Assembly (NCBI GenBank): GCA_964016885.1
Contig: OZ024751.1
Coordinates: forward strand, 5,146,001 to 5,210,000
DNA: 64,000 nucleotides
DNA from: Eledone cirrhosa
Lineage: Eukaryota
Reading direction: 5' to 3'
Shown: piece by piece, positions 5,082-55,180 of the stretch
Numbering within the stretch: the first letter of the stretch is position 1
How the letters are laid out: the number at the start of each line of letters is the position of its first letter
The notes under the pieces: model-generated
What the model saw: only the letters and a program-made list of their open reading frames with translations
Databases searched by the model: none
Told to the model about the DNA's origin: nothing
Translations under genes and position numbers: made by a program

Positions 5082-8332
<3,251 letters not shown>

Positions 8333-8334
8333 AT

Positions 8335-8361
<27 letters not shown>

Positions 8362-8366
<5 letters not shown>

Positions 8367-8615
8367 TAACAGATTAACGTTTAAGCATAGAATCACTGAT
8401 ATCACACTTAACAGGATCATCTGAAACTAAAAAATCAATCTGTGAACGCAGAAGTAAATATTTTGAAAAACGTTGCAACCGAAGGAAAACAGCAAGACGA
8501 TACTTTGGTTCGTGAAGACGTTCCCTGGCAATGAACGGAAAAAAGCGAAGATAATACGTCGTTATATGGATCGTGAGAACAAAATTACACGCAAAGACAA
8601 AAACCACGTTTTTGG
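8362..8615 (+). mobile_element. Dispersed non-coding repeat ('family B')
   Basis: TTAAAATAACAGATTAA..GATCTTCTGAAACT..CGTTGCAACC is shared with 12775-13382, 29360-29490 and 54675-55180. Confidence 0.8.
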
Positions 8616-8694
8616 TATATATAAATATACATACACACTTACATACAAACATTTACATACACACACATATATATACATATATATATATATATAT

Positions 8695-8954
8695 ATTGTT
8701 ATACTTTGGGAGGGTTATGTTGCCAATAAGAAACACACGCATGCGTGTGTTTCTTATTGGCAACATGACCCTCCCAAAGTATAACAATATCGGTTTCAAC
8801 ACACGATTTCAGATAAAGAATCTTGCTAAACAAATTCAGAAACGAAATATATATATATATATAACAATATCGGTTTATATATATATATATATAACAATAT
8901 CGGTTTCAACACACGATTTCAGATAAAGAATCTTGCTAAACAAATTCAGAAACG

Positions 8955-8960
<6 letters not shown>
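8695..8960. repeat. ~95 bp near-perfect palindrome plus tandem 70 bp repeats ('family C')
   Basis: ATTGTTATACTTTGGGAGGG..CACGCATGCGTG..CCCTCCCAAAGTATAACAAT. The ATAACAATATCGGTTTCAACAC..GAAACGAAAT unit is repeated twice. Confidence 0.88.
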
Positions 8961-9005
<45 letters not shown>

Positions 9006-9777
9006 CATATACATACACACATACATATACATATACATGAACACTCGTATATACATATATACACACACGTACACAAACACACAACACATATACCCCCCCC
9101 CCCCACATAAATATATACACACATAGAGGCACAATTCAAATACGTTATACATGTGGAAAAAGCAGATAGGTAATAAGTACTTACATAACCGTAGTTCCGT
9201 GAGGCCGGTCGAGATGGGGGTAGGTGTAGGGTGGGGTGGAATTGGAGGGGATATTTTATGGAGTGTGGCCTTAAAAAATATATATATATTTTTATCCATC
9301 TGGCTTCAACACTGGCTTAAGATATTTCAAAGTTGCAAAGCTTTTGTGCATGAAATTCGGGCAGTGTTCAGTTTATATGTGTGCGTCTGTGAATGTGCTT
9401 ATAGACACCTAACCTTTTTGTTAGCTTAAGTGAACCATAAAAACGAGGAGTGGCACCCCAGCCTGAACCTGTCTATAGAATTCTTTCTGCCTTTGTTATT
9501 CAAAATATAGTTTTTTAAGAATTCCCTTTTATTTAAACCCATCAACCAATGACCTCCACCCGACCCAATTACCACCCTCTCCTATCACCAGAAAATATAT
9601 AAATACCATCATATTACTTGGACAGCGTGCTTCCTGATGATTTCTCCCCAATGAAACAGTTCTAGTCCTGTAAAATCTTTTCTATATTAAATATTATACT
9701 CTGCTTTGTATTGAGTTACTGTGGTTACCCCCGATTGAACTCGGGATAAACTTATATATATATATATATACATATAC

Positions 9778-11535
<1,758 letters not shown>

Positions 11536-12760
11536 ATACCATCGCCAGTGTAATTAACGATATCACGATGGGGTCCAGCGACACAGCGCAAGAAACTGAT
11601 CTGCTCGGAATATACCTCCCCGATAAGCCTAGGGAGGAGATACCGGCCCTACAAGGAGGTGTATATAGGGACGACGCCCTGTTTACCGATAAGAACCATA
11701 GCCCTCGTAGGATAGAGAACCTTAACAAGCATATATACAGGTTCTTCAAGTCATACGGCCTATCTGTAACTATAGATCTCAACCACCAGGTTGTCAACTT
11801 CCGTAGGTAACAACGTAGATAGCAATAATGATAGCCTTACTGGGGGAATTAGAATGGACCGCGATAGAAATTTGAACTGCCGCGACAGGGGACGCTGCCC
11901 CCTTAGGGGATTCTGCTTGACTGATAGGGTCATATATAGGTGCACTGTAACTAGCCGCAAAGCGTTAAACATTATATAGGGGCTGCCTCTGGCCCGTTCA
12001 AAATTAGATTTTGAACACATCTCTACTCTTTCACAAATAAGAAATTAAGACACTCCATTTCGCTCGCGGACTACATCACATCATTAAAAGACTTAAACAT
12101 CAGCTTCTCCACGCACTGGGATATTGTCGGCAGGGCTGCACCGTACAACTTCAAGAGGAAGTGCGATCTTTGCCTCATGGAGCTCTACCACATCATAACT
12201 GCACCCCACGAACTCATCAACAGCAGAGCTGAAACGACGATTGGCTGTACACATCGCTTAAAAATATCCTTCTTCAGATGGGATAAGGAATAGGCGTGAA
12301 ACCGTATACCGGGTCTCCCTGCAACAAGCTTTAACACTCCGGCGGGCAGGCGCTGCTAAATACATCCGGAAACTAACCATGCATCCCAGACCCAGCTTCA
12401 AATGACCCAAGCGGGCAGGTGCAGAATAACAAACGTCTCAAAACAAACGTTGCTTACCTGACCCTGTGCCTATCGACAATGGTAATGTTGTAACCACATC
12501 TTGTAACGGATAAAAAATTTGTGCGGGAAAGACTGCCCTAACACCGGCCAGAGTTACCTACTGCAAAATCAAAACACGCTTTTTTTTGCGAAGAATGAAT
12601 TCTGACCTGAACTTATCTCCAAAAACCGTTTCCGGGCCATGTGAGGAACACATTTAGTTATTTATGCCCTTGAGAAGTCCATCCGTGCGAAACGTACGTA
12701 GGTGCTGTTTTAAATAAACATGTATTAATGGTCTGTTCTCCTATTTCTTAATTTTCCACG
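11536..12760 (+). mobile_element. PLE copy, internally deleted (RT fragment fused to EN + 3' terminus), head-to-head with the preceding copy
   Basis: GVYRDDALF at 11568-11810 jumps at ~11802 to the EN linker. The 3' terminus carries an HHR at 12666-12705. Confidence 0.85.
12666..12705 (+). ncRNA. Hammerhead ribozyme motif, U3/A8 core variant
   Basis: GCCC-UUGAGAA-GUCCAUCCGUGC-GAAAC-GUAC-GUA-GGUGC. Confidence 0.6.
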
Positions 12761-16065: not shown

Positions 16066-16376
16066 CAGATAGAAAATTGAAATGTAAATCTATATTTCAA
16101 TCTCGACACGGGAAGTTAAAAACCCACTAAACAATAAATTTCAGAGTAAGTTTTCTTGGAAAAATTTAAATAAAAATAAATTGCTCAAAATTTTTTGAAA
16201 TATTAACAAAAAAACTGCATTTTAAAGTGTTTATAATTCCGAAATAGAATTATATTATTGAACAGTAAAGAAAACATAAATACAATATTTGGTTGTTTCA
16301 ATGTCTTTTATATTATTTTATTTTGAATATGAATATTAGTTAGTGTAACAATTGGCTATACATGCATATATATACA

Positions 16377-16443
<67 letters not shown>

Positions 16444-16610
16444 ATGTGTTTCTGCTTATATATATATATATATAGGTAGAAGTTGTATTTAATTTGTTGG
16501 AAGTCCGACAAACATAAATGTTTATAACTGATTTAGAGCACTCAACAGTTTACTGGAGTAAATATTCAATGATATTAAATAAATGGAAACTATATTTATA
16601 AAACCATATT

Positions 16611-16677
16611 TATTTTATTATATATATTTCAAGGGCAACCAAGACAACATTGGTACGCTTTCATCAGATAAAATACA
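16611..16677 (-). ncRNA. Type I hammerhead ribozyme motif (mirror of 16722-16790)
   Basis: Reverse complement of the plus-strand copy; 8 bp stem I retained. Confidence 0.8.
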
Positions 16678-16721
16678 AAGTTTGTTTTTCATGGGTATGT
16701 CTCTATTTATAAAACAAACTT

Positions 16722-16790
16722 TGTATTTTATCTGATGAAAGCGTACCAATGTTGTCTTGGTTGCCCTTGAAATATATATAATAAAATACA
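16722..16790 (+). ncRNA. Type I hammerhead ribozyme motif
   Basis: UGUAUUUUAU-CUGAUGA-AAG..CCAA uguuguc UUGG..CUU-GAAAU-AUAU-AUA-AUAAAAUACA. Perfect 10 bp stem I; predicted cut after 16780. Confidence 0.85.
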
Positions 16791-16922
16791 TATGCTTTTA
16801 TAAATATAGTTTTCATTTATTTAATATCATTGAATATTTACTCCAGTAACCGGTTGAGTGCTCTAAATCAGTTATAAACATTTAAGTTTGTCGGATTTCC
16901 AACAAATTAAATACAACTTCTA

Positions 16923-16985
<63 letters not shown>

Positions 16986-16999
16986 AGAAACACACATCC

Positions 17000-17043
<44 letters not shown>

Positions 17044-17052
17044 ATATATGTA

Positions 17053-17715
17053 TATATAGTGTATTTTGCATTACACTTTATGCTTAATTAAAAGCATTTC
17101 GAAGACAATATGATATTGTTTTAGAGTAGTGACAGACTCACTTGCTTTAATTTCAGCAAACAGGGGAGATAAAGCTGACAGGGCCTTGTTTCTGCATTTA
17201 TTGATGCTTATCAAAGCCAACTACTCCTCTCGTTTGCTGAAATCACGGATGTTTGGTTCTTATAGAATTCTAGTAAATAATCAGGAACTGATTATACAGA
17301 GCGGTTGCCGGTCAAGCAGAAATTGAAAATTAGAATTGGTGCTCTGAAATAGCTATATATATATGAAGTTATATATAGTGTATTTTGCAATACACTTTAT
17401 GCTTAATTAAAAGCATTTCGAAGACCTTATGCTATTGTTTTAGAGTAGTGACAGATTCACTTACTTTAATTTCACACATCCGTGATTTCAGCAGACGGGA
17501 GGAGTAGTTGGCTTTGATAAGCATCAATAAATGCAGAAACAAGGCCTTGTCAGCTTTATCTCCCCCTGTTTGCTGAAATTAAAGTAAGTGCGTCTGTCAC
17601 TACACTAAAACAATAGCATAAGGTCTTCGAAATGCTTTTAATTAAGCATAAATTGTATTGCAAAATACACTATATATACATTTATATATATATGGCTATT
17701 TCAGAGCAGCACCAA

Positions 17716-17722
<7 letters not shown>
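17053..17722. mobile_element. Family D: unit, partial tandem copy, then an inverted copy
   Basis: Homologous to 4181-4593; the strand switches at ~17474. Confidence 0.8.
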
Positions 17723-17770
<48 letters not shown>

Positions 17771-17801
17771 TATATATATAATATATATATATATATAATA
17801 T

Positions 17802-17848
<47 letters not shown>

Positions 17849-17973
17849 TATATATATTATATATATGTGTGAATGAAGTAATTCCATCGGAAAAGTCCAG
17901 GAAAAAAGAGTGCTCTATGTAGGCAACAGAGCTTAATTATTATTATTATGTAATAAACAACATAAGGCAATTA

Positions 17974-18033
17974 TTCCATTTACCAGTGGTTTCTTAAAAG
18001 CAAAAGGTTTTGCTTTCAATCCTCAGAACGAAA
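17974..18033 (-). ncRNA. Type I hammerhead ribozyme motif (mirror of 22194-22253)
   Basis: Reverse complement of the plus-strand copy. Confidence 0.85.
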
Positions 18034-18337
18034 AAATCCTGGTTTGTTTATTGAATTTGGACTACAAAAACAAAAATGCAATCTATATGAAAGTGAGGCT
18101 GGAGAAGGGAGAAGGAAAGGAAAAATAAAACAAAATAAAACTACACATGCAAACACACACACAAAAAAACCCCAAAGCATACTTACACACACATACATAT
18201 ATACATATATATATGTACGCATACATATATACATATACACATATATATAAAACGTACACTTACATACACATACACATATATACACACATATACACATACA
18301 TACATTGATACATATACACACACGCACACACGCACAT

Positions 18338-18370
<33 letters not shown>

Positions 18371-18876
18371 CACACGCATACACGCACACATATATATATG
18401 TACATATATATATATATATATATACATACATATATACATATACACACATACACATACACATACATACACATGTGTGTGTACAAGCATACAGATACACAAA
18501 CATAGCCATACGCACACACATATATATATACACACATACATACATTCACACAAACATACAAAAAGTACATACATACACATACATGAATGCACTCCTCTAC
18601 ATATTCACACACGCAAATAAATATAAGAAAAAAAAATATATATATATATTATTAAACATTTTTGACACCGATACATGACCCAGCTAACAGGACAGACACG
18701 CGTGGTAAGTAATACACACAAAAGCACGTATACATACGTACGAAATAGTAAACACATACACACACTCTCATACATAAATATACATAAACAAATACAAAAA
18801 CACATACATACACATACATACACAAACACGCACACGTATACAATATAAACACACACACATGTATATGTAATTATAT

Positions 18877-18971
<95 letters not shown>

Positions 18972-18977
18972 TGTGTG

Positions 18978-19010
<33 letters not shown>

Positions 19011-19044
19011 ATATAATTACATATACATGTATATGTAATTATAT

Positions 19045-19159
<115 letters not shown>

Positions 19160-19190
19160 CATATATATACAAAAATATAAAAATATAAAC

Positions 19191-19222
<32 letters not shown>

Positions 19223-19389
19223 GTAAACACACATATACATACATAGCTAAACAATTATACACATGCAAATACGTATATATCAAAAACACGCACAACCAAA
19301 TACAAATACACACACACACACACACACACACAAAACCACACACATACATAAAAAAAAAAAAAAAAATAAATACACACACACACATATAC

Positions 19390-19462
<73 letters not shown>

Positions 19463-19612
19463 TACACATACACGTACATATACACATATGCATACACATA
19501 CACACACACATATACATGTGTGTATGTGTAAAACTCAGTATTAGAAAAGACAAATGAACCTTACATAAACGTATATATAGTAGTAAAGTAATAAAGCAAC
19601 ATAAGGCAATTA

Positions 19613-19672
19613 TTCCATTCACCAGAGGTTTCTTAAAAGCAAAAAATGTTTCCTTCAATCTTCAGAATGAAA
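19613..19672 (-). ncRNA. Hammerhead motif with GUG triplet (mirror of 20777-20836), probably inactive
   Basis: Reverse complement of the plus-strand copy. Confidence 0.7.
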
Positions 19673-20039
19673 AAAATGAAAAAAACCTGGTTTATCCACA
19701 TATACATACATATACACACACAAATATACATATATATACACATACACACACACACACATACATATATATATATACACACATATATATACATACATATATA
19801 CATATATATATATATACATACATATATATATACACACAAAAATACATACACATATACATAGGTATGTGAAGGGCAAAACAAAAAGAATATATGGGGGGGG
19901 GGGCTAAGAGGAGGTAAAATATAAGGGGAGGTAAGGGAGAAAAATTTTTTTTGTAAATATACAGAAGTACAGAAGGTAGAATCAGCAAAACAAAAGCCGT
20001 AGCAGAAGTAAAGAGCAGAGAAGGAGTTCAAGGCGGTTG

Positions 20040-20296
20040 ATTTATCATAGGAGTGTCAATCCAGTTACAGATCAGATGCGATTTCAGATGAGGACAGCAT
20101 CTAAAGATCTCAGTCTTTGAGTTAAGACAAGCGGAACGAACATCAACGGCCCTCGCAAGTAAGGTATGGGATCTCAAGGATAGTAATATCCCGTACTCTA
20201 TTGATTGGTCTATATTAGACCATTCGAAGGAGTACCAAAGGGGCACAAAGAATTGTTCTTTGTGCACCACAGAAAAGTATAGGATTTTGCTAAACT
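20040..20296 (+). pseudogene. C-terminal GIY-YIG fragment of a PLE in the fold-back spacer
   Basis: Manual translation STALASKVWDLKDSNIPYSIDWSILDHSKEYQRGTKNCSLCTTEKYRILLN parallels STSLANYITSLKD..W.I..CDLC..E in ORF 6341-7339. Confidence 0.75.
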
Positions 20297-20639
20297 TGAG
20301 AGCCGCTTCCGCTTGCCTTAACTCAAAGACTGAGATCTTTAGATGCTGTCCTCATCTGAAATCGCATCTGATCTGTAACTGGATTGACACTCCTATGATA
20401 AATCAACCGCCTTGAACTCCTTCTCTGCTCTTTACTTCTGCTACGGTTTTTGTTTTGCTGATTCTACCTTCTGTACTTCTGTATATTTACAAAAACATTT
20501 TTTCTCCCTTACCTCCCCTTATATTTTACCTCCTCTTAGCCCCCCCCCCATATATTCTTTTTGTTTTGCCCTTCACATACCTATGTGTATGTGTATGTAT
20601 TTTTGTGTGTATATATATATGTATGTATATATATATATG

Positions 20640-20702
<63 letters not shown>

Positions 20703-20776
20703 GTATGTGTATATATATGTATATTTGTGTGTGTATATGTATGTATATGTGGATAAACCAGGTTTTTTTCATTTTT

Positions 20777-20836
20777 TTTCATTCTGAAGATTGAAGGAAA
20801 CATTTTTTGCTTTTAAGAAACCTCTGGTGAATGGAA
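20777..20836 (+). ncRNA. Hammerhead motif with GUG triplet, probably inactive
   Basis: UUUCAUU-CUGAAGA-UUGAAGG..CUUUUAA-GAAACC-UCU-GGUG-AAUGGAA. Confidence 0.7.
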
Positions 20837-20983
20837 TAATTGCCTTATGTTGCTTTATTACTTTACTACTATATATACGTTTATGTAAGGTTCATTTGTC
20901 TTTTCTAATACTGAGTTTTACACATACACACATGTATATGTGTGTGTGTATGTGTATGCATATGTGTATATGTACGTGTACGT

Positions 20984-21057
<74 letters not shown>

Positions 21058-21270
21058 ATGTGTGTGTGTGTATTTATTATTATTATTTTTTTTTATGTAT
21101 GTGTGTCTGTGGTTTTGTGTGTGTGTGTGTGTATTTGTATTTGGTTGTGCGTGTTTTTGATATATACGTATTTGCATGTGTATAATTGTTTAGCTATGTA
21201 TGTATATGTGTGTTTACGTATATGTGTGTGTGTGTGTGCGTTTATATTTTTATATTTTTGTATATATATG

Positions 21271-21353
<83 letters not shown>

Positions 21354-21852
21354 ATATAATTACATATACATGTGTGTGTGTTTATATTGTATACGTGTGC
21401 GTGTTTGTGTATGTATGTGTATGTACGTGTTTTTGTATTTGTTTATGTATATTTATGTATGAGAGTGTGTGTATGTGTTTACTATTTCGTACGTATGTAT
21501 ACGTGCTTTTGTGTGTATTACTTACCACGCGTGTCTGTCCTGTTAGCTGGGTCATGTATCGGTGTCAAAAATGTTTAATATATATATATATATTTTTTTT
21601 TCTTATATTTATTTGCGTGTGTGAATATGTAGAGGAGTGCATTAATGTATGTGTATGTATGTACTTTTTGTATGTTTGTGTGAATGTATGTATGTGTGTA
21701 TATATATGTGTGTGCGTATGGCTATGTTTGTGTATGTGTATGCTTGTACACACACATGTGTATGTGTGTGTATGTGTATGTGTGTATATGTATATATGTA
21801 TGTATATATATATATATATGTACATATATATATGTGTGCGTGTATGCGTGTG

Positions 21853-21887
<35 letters not shown>

Positions 21888-22193
21888 GTATGTGCGTGTG
21901 TGCGTGTGTGTATATGTATCAATGTATGTATGTGTATATGTGTGTATATATGTGTATGTGTATGTAAGTGTACGTTTGATATATATGTGTATATGTATAT
22001 ATGTATGCGTACATATATATATGTATATATGTATGTGTGTGTAAGTATGCTTTGGGGTTTTTTTGTGTGTGTGTTTGCATGTGTAGTTTTATTTTGTTTT
22101 ATTTTTCCTTTCCTTCTCCCTTCTCCAGCCTCACTTTCATATAGATTGCATTTTTGTTTTTGTAGTCCAAATTCAATAAACAAACCAGGATTT

Positions 22194-22253
22194 TTTCGTT
22201 CTGAGGATTGAAAGCAAAACCTTTTGCTTTTAAGAAACCACTGGTAAATGGAA
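22194..22253 (+). ncRNA. Type I hammerhead ribozyme motif
   Basis: UUUCGUU-CUGAGGA-UUGAAAGCAAA accu UUUGCUUUUAA-GAAACC-ACU-GGUA-AAUGGAA. Stem I 7 bp, stem II 11 bp; predicted cut after 22246. Confidence 0.85.
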
Positions 22254-22352
22254 TAATTGCCTTATGTTGTTTATTACATAATAATAATATATTATATATA
22301 TATATATATATAATATATATATATATATAATATATATATATATATAACATAT

Positions 22353-22476
<124 letters not shown>

Positions 22477-22480
22477 CATG

Positions 22481-22588
<108 letters not shown>

Positions 22589-26616: not shown

Positions 26617-29068
<2,452 letters not shown>

Positions 29069-51016: not shown

Positions 51017-51101
<85 letters not shown>

Positions 51102-51102
<1 letters not shown>

Positions 51103-51645
51103 GAATGTATATATAGTGTATTTTGCATTACACTGTATGCTTAATTAAAAGCATTTTGAAGACCATGCGCTAATGTTTTAAAGTAGCGACATTGTCGCTT
51201 ATTTCAATTTTCGAAGGTCAGGGGGAGACAAGTTGACAGCGCTGTTTCGTACTAATTGGTACTTGTATATTGCTATTTCATATATATCGCTATATATCGC
51301 TATTTCAGAGCACCAATTCTAATTTTCAATTTCTGCTGGGCCGGCGACCGCTTTGTAAAATCAGTTCCTGATTGTTACTGGAATCCTATAAGAATCCAAC
51401 ATACATAATTTTCGGCAGTCGAGGAGAGTACTGAGTTTTGACAAGTACCAATTAGTACGAATAAGCGGTGTCAACATATCCCCCCCCCCGACTGCCGAAA
51501 ATTTAAGTAAGCGACAATGTTGCTACTTTAAAACAATAGCGCATGGTCTTCAAAATGCTTTTAATTAAGCATACAGTGTATTGCAAAATACACTATATAT
51601 ACATTCATATATATATCGCTATTTCAGAGCACCAATTCTAATTTT

Positions 51646-51647
<2 letters not shown>
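51102..51647. mobile_element. Family D, diverged copy in inverted arrangement
   Basis: Plus partial 51102-51265 and minus unit ~51299-51647. Confidence 0.75.
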
Positions 51648-51678
<31 letters not shown>

Positions 51679-51839
51679 GGGATAACAAGTTATCGTTATA
51701 GGTAATCCAATTAGAGGTTGTGAGTACTCTGCGTCGTAGATAGTTTTAACGTACGGCTTTGTTTGACTCAACAAGATGCTTTCATAGTTATGCAGCGAGT
51801 TCGCGGTAATGTCTATGCAGGTTATACTTGGAGTAATAA

Positions 51840-55180
<3,341 letters not shown>

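What the first reader, a model, noticed from the sequence alone, without database searches (positions are those of the whole stretch)
16441..17000. 560 bp palindromic mini-element with two back-to-back, opposite-strand, canonical hammerheads
The arms are near-perfect, the spacer is ~22 bp and there is no coding sequence. Each strand encodes one complete HHR (10 bp and 8 bp stem I, CUGAUGA, AUA site). A transcript from either side would contain a ribozyme and its own antisense. It could fold into a ~250 bp dsRNA (siRNA or editing substrate, ribozyme off) or cleave co-transcriptionally. This recalls the both-polarity ribozyme layout of viroid-like RNAs, although here it follows from an inverted duplication.
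Basis: partly seen in the sequence, partly recalled or inferred. Interest (0 to 1): 0.75.

Follow-up and report, generated by a model that had tools for sequence, protein, structure and literature searches.

The report
Mirror-image Penelope retrotransposon end stub
The palindrome is real but ordinary in kind: it is two back-to-back copies of the ribozyme-bearing end of a very common Penelope-type jumping gene, likely made during insertion rather than a viroid-like RNA, and this copy stands out only because both long ends and a little neighbouring DNA are mirrored, likely because the new DNA folded back and copied itself.

Summary
The palindrome and both type I hammerheads are there. They are the 3' end (pLTR) of a Hydra-clade Penelope-like retrotransposon whose ~3.45 kb ORF-bearing copies are in the same genome. 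The hammerhead 26-mer has 1,034 exact hits. Of 83 position-ordered insertions, 46 are head-to-head fold-backs, with turning points that vary from copy to copy. The 22-bp "spacer" is extra parent sequence on one arm. So the palindrome is remade at each insertion, not spread as a unit, a layout already in print. Family-wide, 35 of 36 fold-backs pair a short with a long end, and arms share subtype in 23 of 24: both cut target ends likely prime on one RNA. This copy is a rare long/long exception with mirrored host flank, best explained by DNA snap-back. Helix III is two A-U pairs; on either transcript the antisense arm precedes the ribozyme, so cleavage in cis is unlikely. Nothing was tested biochemically. 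The scan reported such fold-backs before, in this genome and others.

The parts
16686..16924 (+). Right arm: 5'-truncated 3' end (pLTR) of a Hydra-clade Penelope-like element, parent positions about -46 to +189 from the hammerhead core, long (tailed) end
   Evidence: 92.7% to the natural pLTR of L118 over 247 columns; ends mapped
16475..16688 (-). Left arm: inverted copy, parent positions about -21 to +189, long (tailed) end
   Evidence: 95.0% to the L118 pLTR over 222 columns; 7 mismatches to the right arm
16689..16710 (+). 22-bp 'spacer': parent sequence present only in the longer-reaching right arm; junction has a 3-nt T microhomology at 16686-16688
   Evidence: same letters upstream of the hammerhead in other copies; overlap 3
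16722..16790 (+). Type I hammerhead: stem I 16722-16731/16781-16790, core 16732-16738, stem II 16739-16768, GAAA 16769-16772, 2-bp helix III, predicted cut after 16780
   Evidence: cleavage not tested
16611..16675 (-). Second type I hammerhead (stem I 8 bp), predicted cut after 16619; lacks the upstream strand that extends stem I in the parent
   Evidence: active fold 6.6 kcal/mol above the minimum, against 2.8 for the + copy
16833..16923 (+). About 90-bp optional 'tail' between the family's short and long 3' ends; in tandem copies it runs on into the 5' leader of the ORF
   Evidence: ends cluster near +107 and +191; L118, L119, L121
16476..16566 (-). Second copy of the tail (the unusual feature: most fold-backs have it on one arm only)
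16458..16474 (.). (TA)n target tract, left
   Evidence: sequence
16925..16982 (.). (TA)n target tract, right
   Evidence: sequence
16441..16457 (.). Mirrored host-flank motif, left copy (not part of the retrotransposon)
   Evidence: one exact match in 3.0 Gb, this site; flank score 12
16983..17000 (.). Mirrored host-flank motif, right copy (one substitution, 2 nt longer)

Best explanation
This is a stub of a Hydra-clade Penelope-like retrotransposon, two 5'-truncated copies of its hammerhead-bearing end joined head to head in a TA microsatellite, and it was likely made in one insertion event and is probably inert. Shown: the parent family, the TA target, the variable junctions, the two fixed 3' ends, the short/long pairing and the shared subtype of paired arms. 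Inferred for the family: the element's GIY-YIG endonuclease cuts both strands of (TA)n; each freed end primes reverse transcription on the same uncleaved RNA, one at the short site and one at the long site; both cDNAs stop early and are joined, leaving outward-pointing arms. Inferred for this copy, which is long/long with mirrored flank: one cDNA primed at the long site stopped 46 nt upstream of the core, folded back on a 3-4 nt A/T microhomology (the 22-nt spacer is the loop), copied itself and about 75 nt of the adjoining host DNA, and rejoined the other end in the TA tract (my odds: snap-back at insertion 0.55, early arm-to-arm repair of a short/long copy 0.3, other 0.15). The hammerhead belongs to the parent's life cycle, where same-strand tandem copies could pair their self-complementary helix III; in the stub it would be masked by its own antisense.
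For: Parent: 67 bp upstream of the core leads to loci whose upstream DNA continues into a GIY-YIG/RT ORF; L118 is pLTR-ORF-pLTR with two same-strand hammerheads 3,450 bp apart; 689- and 699-aa frames in L117 and L112 carry the Hydra-type motifs of Craig 2021. Abundance: 1,034 exact hits; the 17 close pairs among the first 100 are all divergent, 109-4,306 bp apart. Sample of 83 insertions: 46 fold-backs with a mapped partner end, 6 with an inverted piece without one, 31 without partner in the fetched DNA. Ends: 35 of 36 short/long, 1 short/short, 0 long/long (binomial p 1e-9 against 0.5); solo arms 14 short, 12 long, 5 other. 9 of the 35 partner arms are tail only, which fold-back of a short-ended arm cannot make. 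Stem II subtype agrees in 23 of 24 pairs, expected 0.24; arms differ 3.8% against 4.5% to other copies (n 29, p 0.003). This copy: both long/long copies found (window, L002) have mirrored flanks (scores 12, 22), against 9 or less in all 46 sample fold-backs; both window arms share a terminal base seen at 4 places genome-wide, 2 of them these arms; arm divergence 3.4% is the family's typical age. Literature: a PLE protein cuts and extends both target strands and starts at two sites that define the tail, on uncleaved RNA (PMC11167929, passages and section 3 part 2).
Against: The long/long reading rests on two complete cases (a third, L016, has lost its right end). The sample was picked by an exact 26-mer on one chromosome, and for 27 of 83 loci only 1.5 kb upstream was read, so the fold-back share is a lower bound for that subset only. 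One pair in the sample (L157) and one outside it (L017) have arms of different subtype, so two RNAs or later mutation occur. Junction microhomology is weak across the family: 12 of 31 junctions overlap by 1-5 nt, 4 are blunt, 15 have extra letters. Pfam found no family in the two L058 ORF pieces; clade assignment is by motif comparison by eye, not a tree. No listed read or contig bridged this copy's own junction. A 2-bp helix III with a tetraloop does cleave as a monomer in some invertebrate retrozymes (PMC7229834, passages), so 'needs a dimer' is not shown.
Confidence: 0.82

Rival explanations
1. Same retrotransposon stub, but this copy began as a normal short/long twin-primed insertion and was made symmetric soon afterwards by hairpin-mediated repair that copied one arm and its flank over the other.
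For: Short/long is the rule (35 of 36); long inverted repeats with mirrored microsatellites are common in this window; mirrored flank shows DNA-level copying.
Against: Arm divergence of 3.4% equals the family mean of 3.8%, so any conversion must be about as old as the insertion; snap-back explains spacer, microhomology, tail and flank in one step.
Confidence: 0.25
2. A self-propagating palindromic mini-element (MITE-like, retrozyme-like or viroid-like) that spreads as a two-ribozyme unit through an RNA with ribozymes in both polarities.
For: Hundreds of short two-hammerhead palindromes exist; 5' ends cluster 68-84 nt upstream of the core (20 of 48 focal arms, 8 of 40 partner arms), so several copies have similar size.
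Against: Junctions vary among the 32 examined and the 30 loci; distances between opposed cores run from about 50 bp to 4.3 kb, the long ones including ORF sequence; no other locus among the 40 scored in each has this junction with both tails; a short/long palindrome cannot template itself with both ends from one sense RNA; non-LTR retrozymes are same-strand tandem repeats (PMC7229834).
Confidence: 0.04
3. 3' transduction: a read-through RNA from a long-ended source copy carried the TA tract and flank motif, and both primings started downstream of them.
For: Would give long/long arms, a shared terminal base and mirrored flank from one RNA.
Against: The flank motif has one exact match in the genome, this site; the two other copies with the same terminal base lack the motif; priming outside the two fixed sites is rare in the sample.
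Confidence: 0.08
4. Host-used hairpin: the stub is transcribed and kept as a source of dsRNA or small RNAs that silence the family.
For: A read-through transcript would form a ~215-bp duplex; small RNAs against Penelope copies are reported in rotifer and Drosophila (PMC3846280, passages).
Against: Arms have drifted apart at the family's typical rate; nothing singles this locus out. As a side effect across hundreds of fold-backs it is plausible and compatible with the best explanation.
Confidence: 0.07
5. Assembly or long-read fold-back artefact.
For: No listed record from other samples bridged this junction; mirrored flank is a known artefact signature (own knowledge).
Against: Arms differ at 7 sites plus TA length and a 2-nt indel in the flank motif, the mirror stops within about 80 bp, the loop is parent sequence, and short-read contigs of other samples hold head-to-head joints of other copies (tables 5 and 5c).
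Confidence: 0.02

Closest known systems
Hydra clade of C-terminal EN+ Penelope-like elements (Craig et al. 2021, PMC8557442; passages, section 11, supplement parts 2 and 58 read), e.g. Penelope-13_HM
   Same: Single RT plus GIY-YIG ORF with Hydra motifs, insertion in (TA)n, type I hammerhead in the 3' end; Penelope-13_HM is listed with a 5'-truncated inverted copy and the same hammerhead on both strands.
   Different: New family; unit about 3.45 kb with a long 3' non-coding part (published members mostly under 3 kb); tail about 90 bp rather than 30-40; helix III is pure AU.
Inverted pLTR plus one-sided tail of EN+ PLEs (Arkhipova et al. 2013, PMC3846280, passages; Craig 2021 Fig. 2 legend)
   Same: [quoted passage not shown]
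   Different: Those passages describe the layout and suggest self-priming on an antisense template; they give no count of end pairing. This copy has the tail on both ends and a mirrored flank.
Opposite-strand dual minimal hammerheads of Schistosoma PLEs (Cervera and de la Pena 2014, PMC4209133; parts 1-2 of 4 read)
   Same: Dual hammerheads 'about 100-700 bp apart but in opposite strands', short palindromic helix III thought to work as a dimer.
   Different: Other clade and host; that paper does not analyse junctions or ends.
Poseidon element PAc of Anolis in vitro (Frangieh et al. 2024, PMC11167929; passages and section 3 part 2)
   Same: Cuts and extends both target strands, two RT start sites bounding the tail, uncleaved RNA as main template, protein-assisted hammerhead.
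   Different: Penelope/Poseidon clade; inverted insertions were not addressed in what I read.
L1 twin priming (recalled, not read here)
   Same: Two target ends prime on one RNA and give an inverted 5' piece; 9 of 35 short/long pairs have non-overlapping arms as in L1.
   Different: Here the second priming site is fixed about 90 nt from the first and arms usually overlap, so both copy the same RNA stretch.
Non-LTR retrozymes and viroid-like circular RNAs (PMC7229834 passages; 10.64898/2026.07.22.740005 part 1 of 5)
   Same: Non-coding, type I hammerhead, AT-rich, derived from PLE ends.
   Different: Retrozymes are same-strand tandem repeats that yield circles by double cleavage; this has one ribozyme per strand and cannot.

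Membership tests
Penelope-like element, Hydra clade (parent family) | Single ORF with RT followed by C-terminal GIY-YIG endonuclease | tested here: met
   689/699-aa frames in L117/L112 and two-piece ORF in L058; Atlas look-alikes at 0.95-0.96 carry RVT_1, GIY-YIG, HTH_animal. Pfam itself gave 0 hits.
Penelope-like element, Hydra clade (parent family) | RWK-like and DKT motifs, CxCX5C linker, CxxC and CxH around the EN residues, no CCHH | tested here: met
   RLRW, SDKT, CNCR-5-C, CKLC, SCRH, compared by eye with section 11 and Fig. S7 rows; RT4/RT5 read FDITMGS..LVG and GLYRDD as in Hydra rows, unlike Penelope, Nematis, Neptune rows
Penelope-like element, Hydra clade (parent family) | Placement in the Hydra clade by RT phylogeny | not tested
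   Reference proteins were visible only as text of a supplement; no tree built
Penelope-like element, Hydra clade (parent family) | Insertion into (TA)n | tested here: met
   Both ends of the window copy and the great majority of ends listed run into TA tracts
Penelope-like element, Hydra clade (parent family) | pLTR with hammerhead, partial tandems, inverted 5'-truncated copies, optional tail | tested here: met
   L118, L119, L121 tandems; 46 of 83 fold-backs; two 3' ends
Type I hammerhead ribozyme | Core CUGANGA, GAAA, NUH and three helices | tested here: met
   stem II covariation in 12 related rows; helix III only 2 A-U pairs; single-arm fold z -0.39; Rfam 0 hits
Type I hammerhead ribozyme | Self-cleavage | not testable with these tools
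   No assay; no pile-up of 5' ends at the cut site (1 of 40 partner arms)
Non-LTR retrozyme | Same-strand tandem units each with a hammerhead | tested here: not met
   One hammerhead per strand here; 0 of 17 close pairs among the first 100 hits are same-strand
Non-LTR retrozyme | Expressed as small circular RNA | not testable with these tools
   No RNA holder listed
MITE or other self-propagating palindrome | Copies share one internal sequence and both termini | tested here: not met
   Junctions and lengths vary between copies; termini are unequal in 35 of 36
Viroid-like RNA | Circular RNA replicon with different ribozymes in each polarity, no retroelement parent | tested here: not met
   Genomic DNA repeat; both ribozymes are one sequence duplicated; ORF-bearing parent found

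The most novel reading that the evidence does not exclude
The family is a fossil record of how Penelope-like elements integrate: one RNP primes both ends of a double-strand cut in (TA)n at two fixed sites of one uncleaved RNA, strictly one short and one long, with most cDNAs stopping at the RNA's 5' end about 80 nt upstream of the hammerhead; rare long/long copies with mirrored flank, like this one, record a second route in which the cDNA snaps back and duplicates host DNA. This would explain PLE inverted insertions without an antisense template.
Probability: 0.55. Interest if true: 0.55.

Novelty: new member of a known kind. Interest (0 to 1): 0.3.

Why it matters
As a locus it matters little: one of many dead retrotransposon ends. 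The family statistics matter more. How PLEs form inverted insertions is called unresolved in PMC8557442, and PMC3846280 proposed self-priming on an antisense template. Strict short/long pairing, shared subtype and tail-only partners favour two primings on one sense RNA and match the two-strand, two-start-site chemistry of PMC11167929, giving a direct in vitro test. The long/long copies suggest insertion can also duplicate host DNA in mirror image. Hundreds of such hairpins could feed dsRNA pathways, which is untested.

Tried and rejected
Rfam at gathering score: 0 matches in the window. Pfam on two L058 ORF pieces and the window ORF at 10335-11354: 0 families. Sequencing runs: no RNA holder listed, so expression, editing, small RNAs and circles were not examined. 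Laying four DNA-type runs on the element showed the family and joints of other copies but could not be made locus-specific; on the 91-bp junction no listed piece bridged it, which neither confirms nor refutes this allele in those samples. Looked for 5' ends at the hammerhead cut site: 1 of 40, no enrichment. Looked for more long/long copies with two further queries: none beyond the window, L002 and the damaged L016 among 40 scored each; three odd hits were short/truncated forms. L031 and L051 looked like mirrored flanks but are other repeats on either side, not adjoining mirrors. A first mapping script was swamped by TA hits and redone. Paper searches for the two-priming reading: 'twin priming, Penelope, inversion' gave 3 listings, none on PLE mechanism by title and abstract start; 'Penelope-like, both strands, head-to-head, target-primed' gave 0; subscription papers (e.g. 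the 2005-2006 PLE reviews) are not in the library, so absence from print is not established. Host gene context was not determined; ORF listing of 8-30 kb showed only repeat-like and transposon frames.

Full report
Observation. The window lies at G000:C11:5146001-5210000 of a 3.0-Gb, microsatellite-rich animal genome. The inverted repeat is real: arms 16357-16688 and 16711-17042, 22 nt apart. Without the TA tracts the arms are 16475-16688 and 16711-16924, gap-free with 7 mismatches. Each strand has a type I hammerhead (cores at 16732 on +, 16667 on -; stem I 10 and 8 bp; AUA site). Rfam did not detect them. In 12 hand-picked related hammerheads from this genome, stem II keeps pairing through double changes at 7 of 9 pairs around a conserved C-C mismatch; in partner arms, which were not selected on the core, core positions differ from the majority in 7 of 339 cells against 3-6% in neighbouring sequence. 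Helix III is two A-U pairs in a self-complementary 8-mer: +4.7 kcal/mol as a hairpin, -3.2 as a duplex of two copies. The single + arm does not fold better than shuffles (z -0.39).

What it is. The element has 4,423 candidate matches in the genome, of which 40 were scored and all 40 matched on both strands (the query favours palindromes). The centres differed from copy to copy and held successive pieces of one upstream sequence. Searching with that upstream sequence led to loci that continue into a GIY-YIG-type frame and an RT. Fifteen long loci showed a unit of about 3.45 kb, with pLTR-ORF-pLTR tandems carrying two same-strand hammerheads (L118, L121), frames of 689 and 699 aa (L117, L112), and inverted truncated copies at the 5' side. 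The protein motifs match the Hydra rows, not the Penelope, Nematis or Neptune rows, of Craig et al. 2021 (PMC8557442), compared by eye. Pfam found nothing; Atlas look-alikes carry RVT_1, GIY-YIG and HTH_animal. The window's arms are 92.7% and 95.0% identical to the L118 pLTR. The 22-bp spacer is parent sequence: the right arm starts 46 nt and the left arm 21 nt upstream of the core, with a 3-nt overlap.

Family census. An exact 26-mer over the core has 523 + 511 hits, control 0. The first 100 listed (chromosome C1, in order) collapse to 83 insertions; the 17 close pairs are all divergent, 109-4,306 bp apart. I read all 83 (27 of them with only 1.5 kb upstream). 46 have an inverted partner arm with a mapped 3' end, 6 an inverted piece without one, 31 none. 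3' ends fall at two sites about 90 bp apart, short and long; in tandems the tail between them continues into the ORF leader. Of the 46, 36 have both ends at these sites: 35 short/long, 1 short/short, 0 long/long (p 1e-9); 10 with a damaged or intermediate end were left out. Solo arms are 14 short, 12 long, 5 other. Nine of the 35 partners are tail only. Paired arms share stem II subtype in 23 of 24 scorable pairs, expected 0.24, and differ by 3.8% against 4.5% to other copies (n 29). 5' ends cluster 68-84 nt upstream of the core (20 of 48 focal, 8 of 40 partner arms) and not at the cut site (1 of 40); this may be the RNA's 5' end or a small hairpin there. Junctions: 12 of 31 with 1-5 nt overlap, 4 blunt, 15 with extra letters.

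How it likely works. Inference: both ends of a cut in (TA)n prime reverse transcription on one RNA that the hammerhead has not cut, one at each fixed site, and the two truncated cDNAs are joined. Fold-back of one cDNA cannot give a tail-bearing partner to a short-ended arm, and two independent RNAs would not share subtype so often. This fits PMC11167929, where a PLE protein cut and extended both strands, started at two sites bounding the tail and used unprocessed RNA.

This copy is the exception. Both arms are long, both share a terminal base found at only 4 places in the genome, and a host motif beyond the TA tracts is mirrored; the left form occurs once in the genome. The only other complete long/long copy found, L002, also has mirrored flanks (scores 12 and 22, against 9 or less in all 46 sample fold-backs and in 21 further rows, two of which repeat sample loci). 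Two more searches found no other. Mirrored host DNA means DNA-level copying. Since the arms differ by 3.4%, the family norm, it happened at or near insertion: most simply the cDNA end folded back on A/T microhomology, leaving the 22-nt loop, and ran through the tail into the flank. Early arm-to-arm repair is the main rival.

RNA consequences. A read-through transcript of either strand meets the antisense arm first and folds into a duplex of about -310 kcal/mol, so the ribozyme would be masked; a partner for helix III needs a second same-strand copy, which the parent tandem has and the stub lacks. Some invertebrate hammerheads with 2-bp helix III cleave as monomers (PMC7229834), so the isolated arm may cleave. 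No RNA data were available. Short-read contigs of other samples hold head-to-head joints of other copies, but none listed bridged this junction.

Known or new. The layout is in print: opposite-strand dual hammerheads 100-700 bp apart in Schistosoma PLEs (PMC4209133), inverted pLTR with one-sided tail (PMC3846280; PMC8557442), and a Hydra element with the hammerhead on both strands. I did not find the strict end pairing or the two-priming reading in two paper searches, which do not cover subscription journals; supplements of PMC11167929 and PMC4209133 were not read and may bear on this. The scan's own notes hold 66 similar findings in at least 18 genomes, including the short/long rule in this genome; I reached the reading before opening them and take them as leads, not support. 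Verdict: new member of a known kind, interest 0.3; the value lies in the family statistics and the long/long exception, not in a viroid-like element.

Noticed in passing
window 17721-22511: 4.8-kb fold-back (94-95% arms) centred near 20,200 on the C-terminal part of a GIY-YIG-like frame, with another type I hammerhead on each strand (-18026, +22201) and long mirrored microsatellites inside the arms: a second PLE family in the same layout.
   Followed up: partly
window 17035-17810: A different small repeat in three arms (one direct, one inverted pair) right beside the element in the same TA array; no type I hammerhead by my descriptor; its end also appears in the flank of L160. No earlier scan note by sequence.
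   Followed up: no
window 5200-12530 and 51093-53590: Further Hydra-like PLE remnants (41-53% identity to the L117 protein) in nested inverted arrangements.
   Followed up: partly
window 27203-28822 (-): Frames resembling a PIF1-type helicase and Helitron Rep N-terminus (by eye, recalled motifs).
   Followed up: no
family pLTR, 68-84 nt upstream of the hammerhead core (e.g. L079, L037, L148): Hot spot of 5' truncation and of fold-back centres, over a 4-bp hairpin and an initiator-like motif; candidate transcription start.
   Followed up: partly
L112:607-2834, L016:427-496, L121:7407-7472, L139:3689-3766: Sister families share stem I and the AU helix III but have re-paired stem II; L112 has a sister-family fold-back directly upstream of a near-complete ORF of this family.
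   Followed up: partly
L146, L086, L136: Repeated insertions of the family into the TA tract left by an earlier copy, including tail-to-tail neighbours.
   Followed up: no
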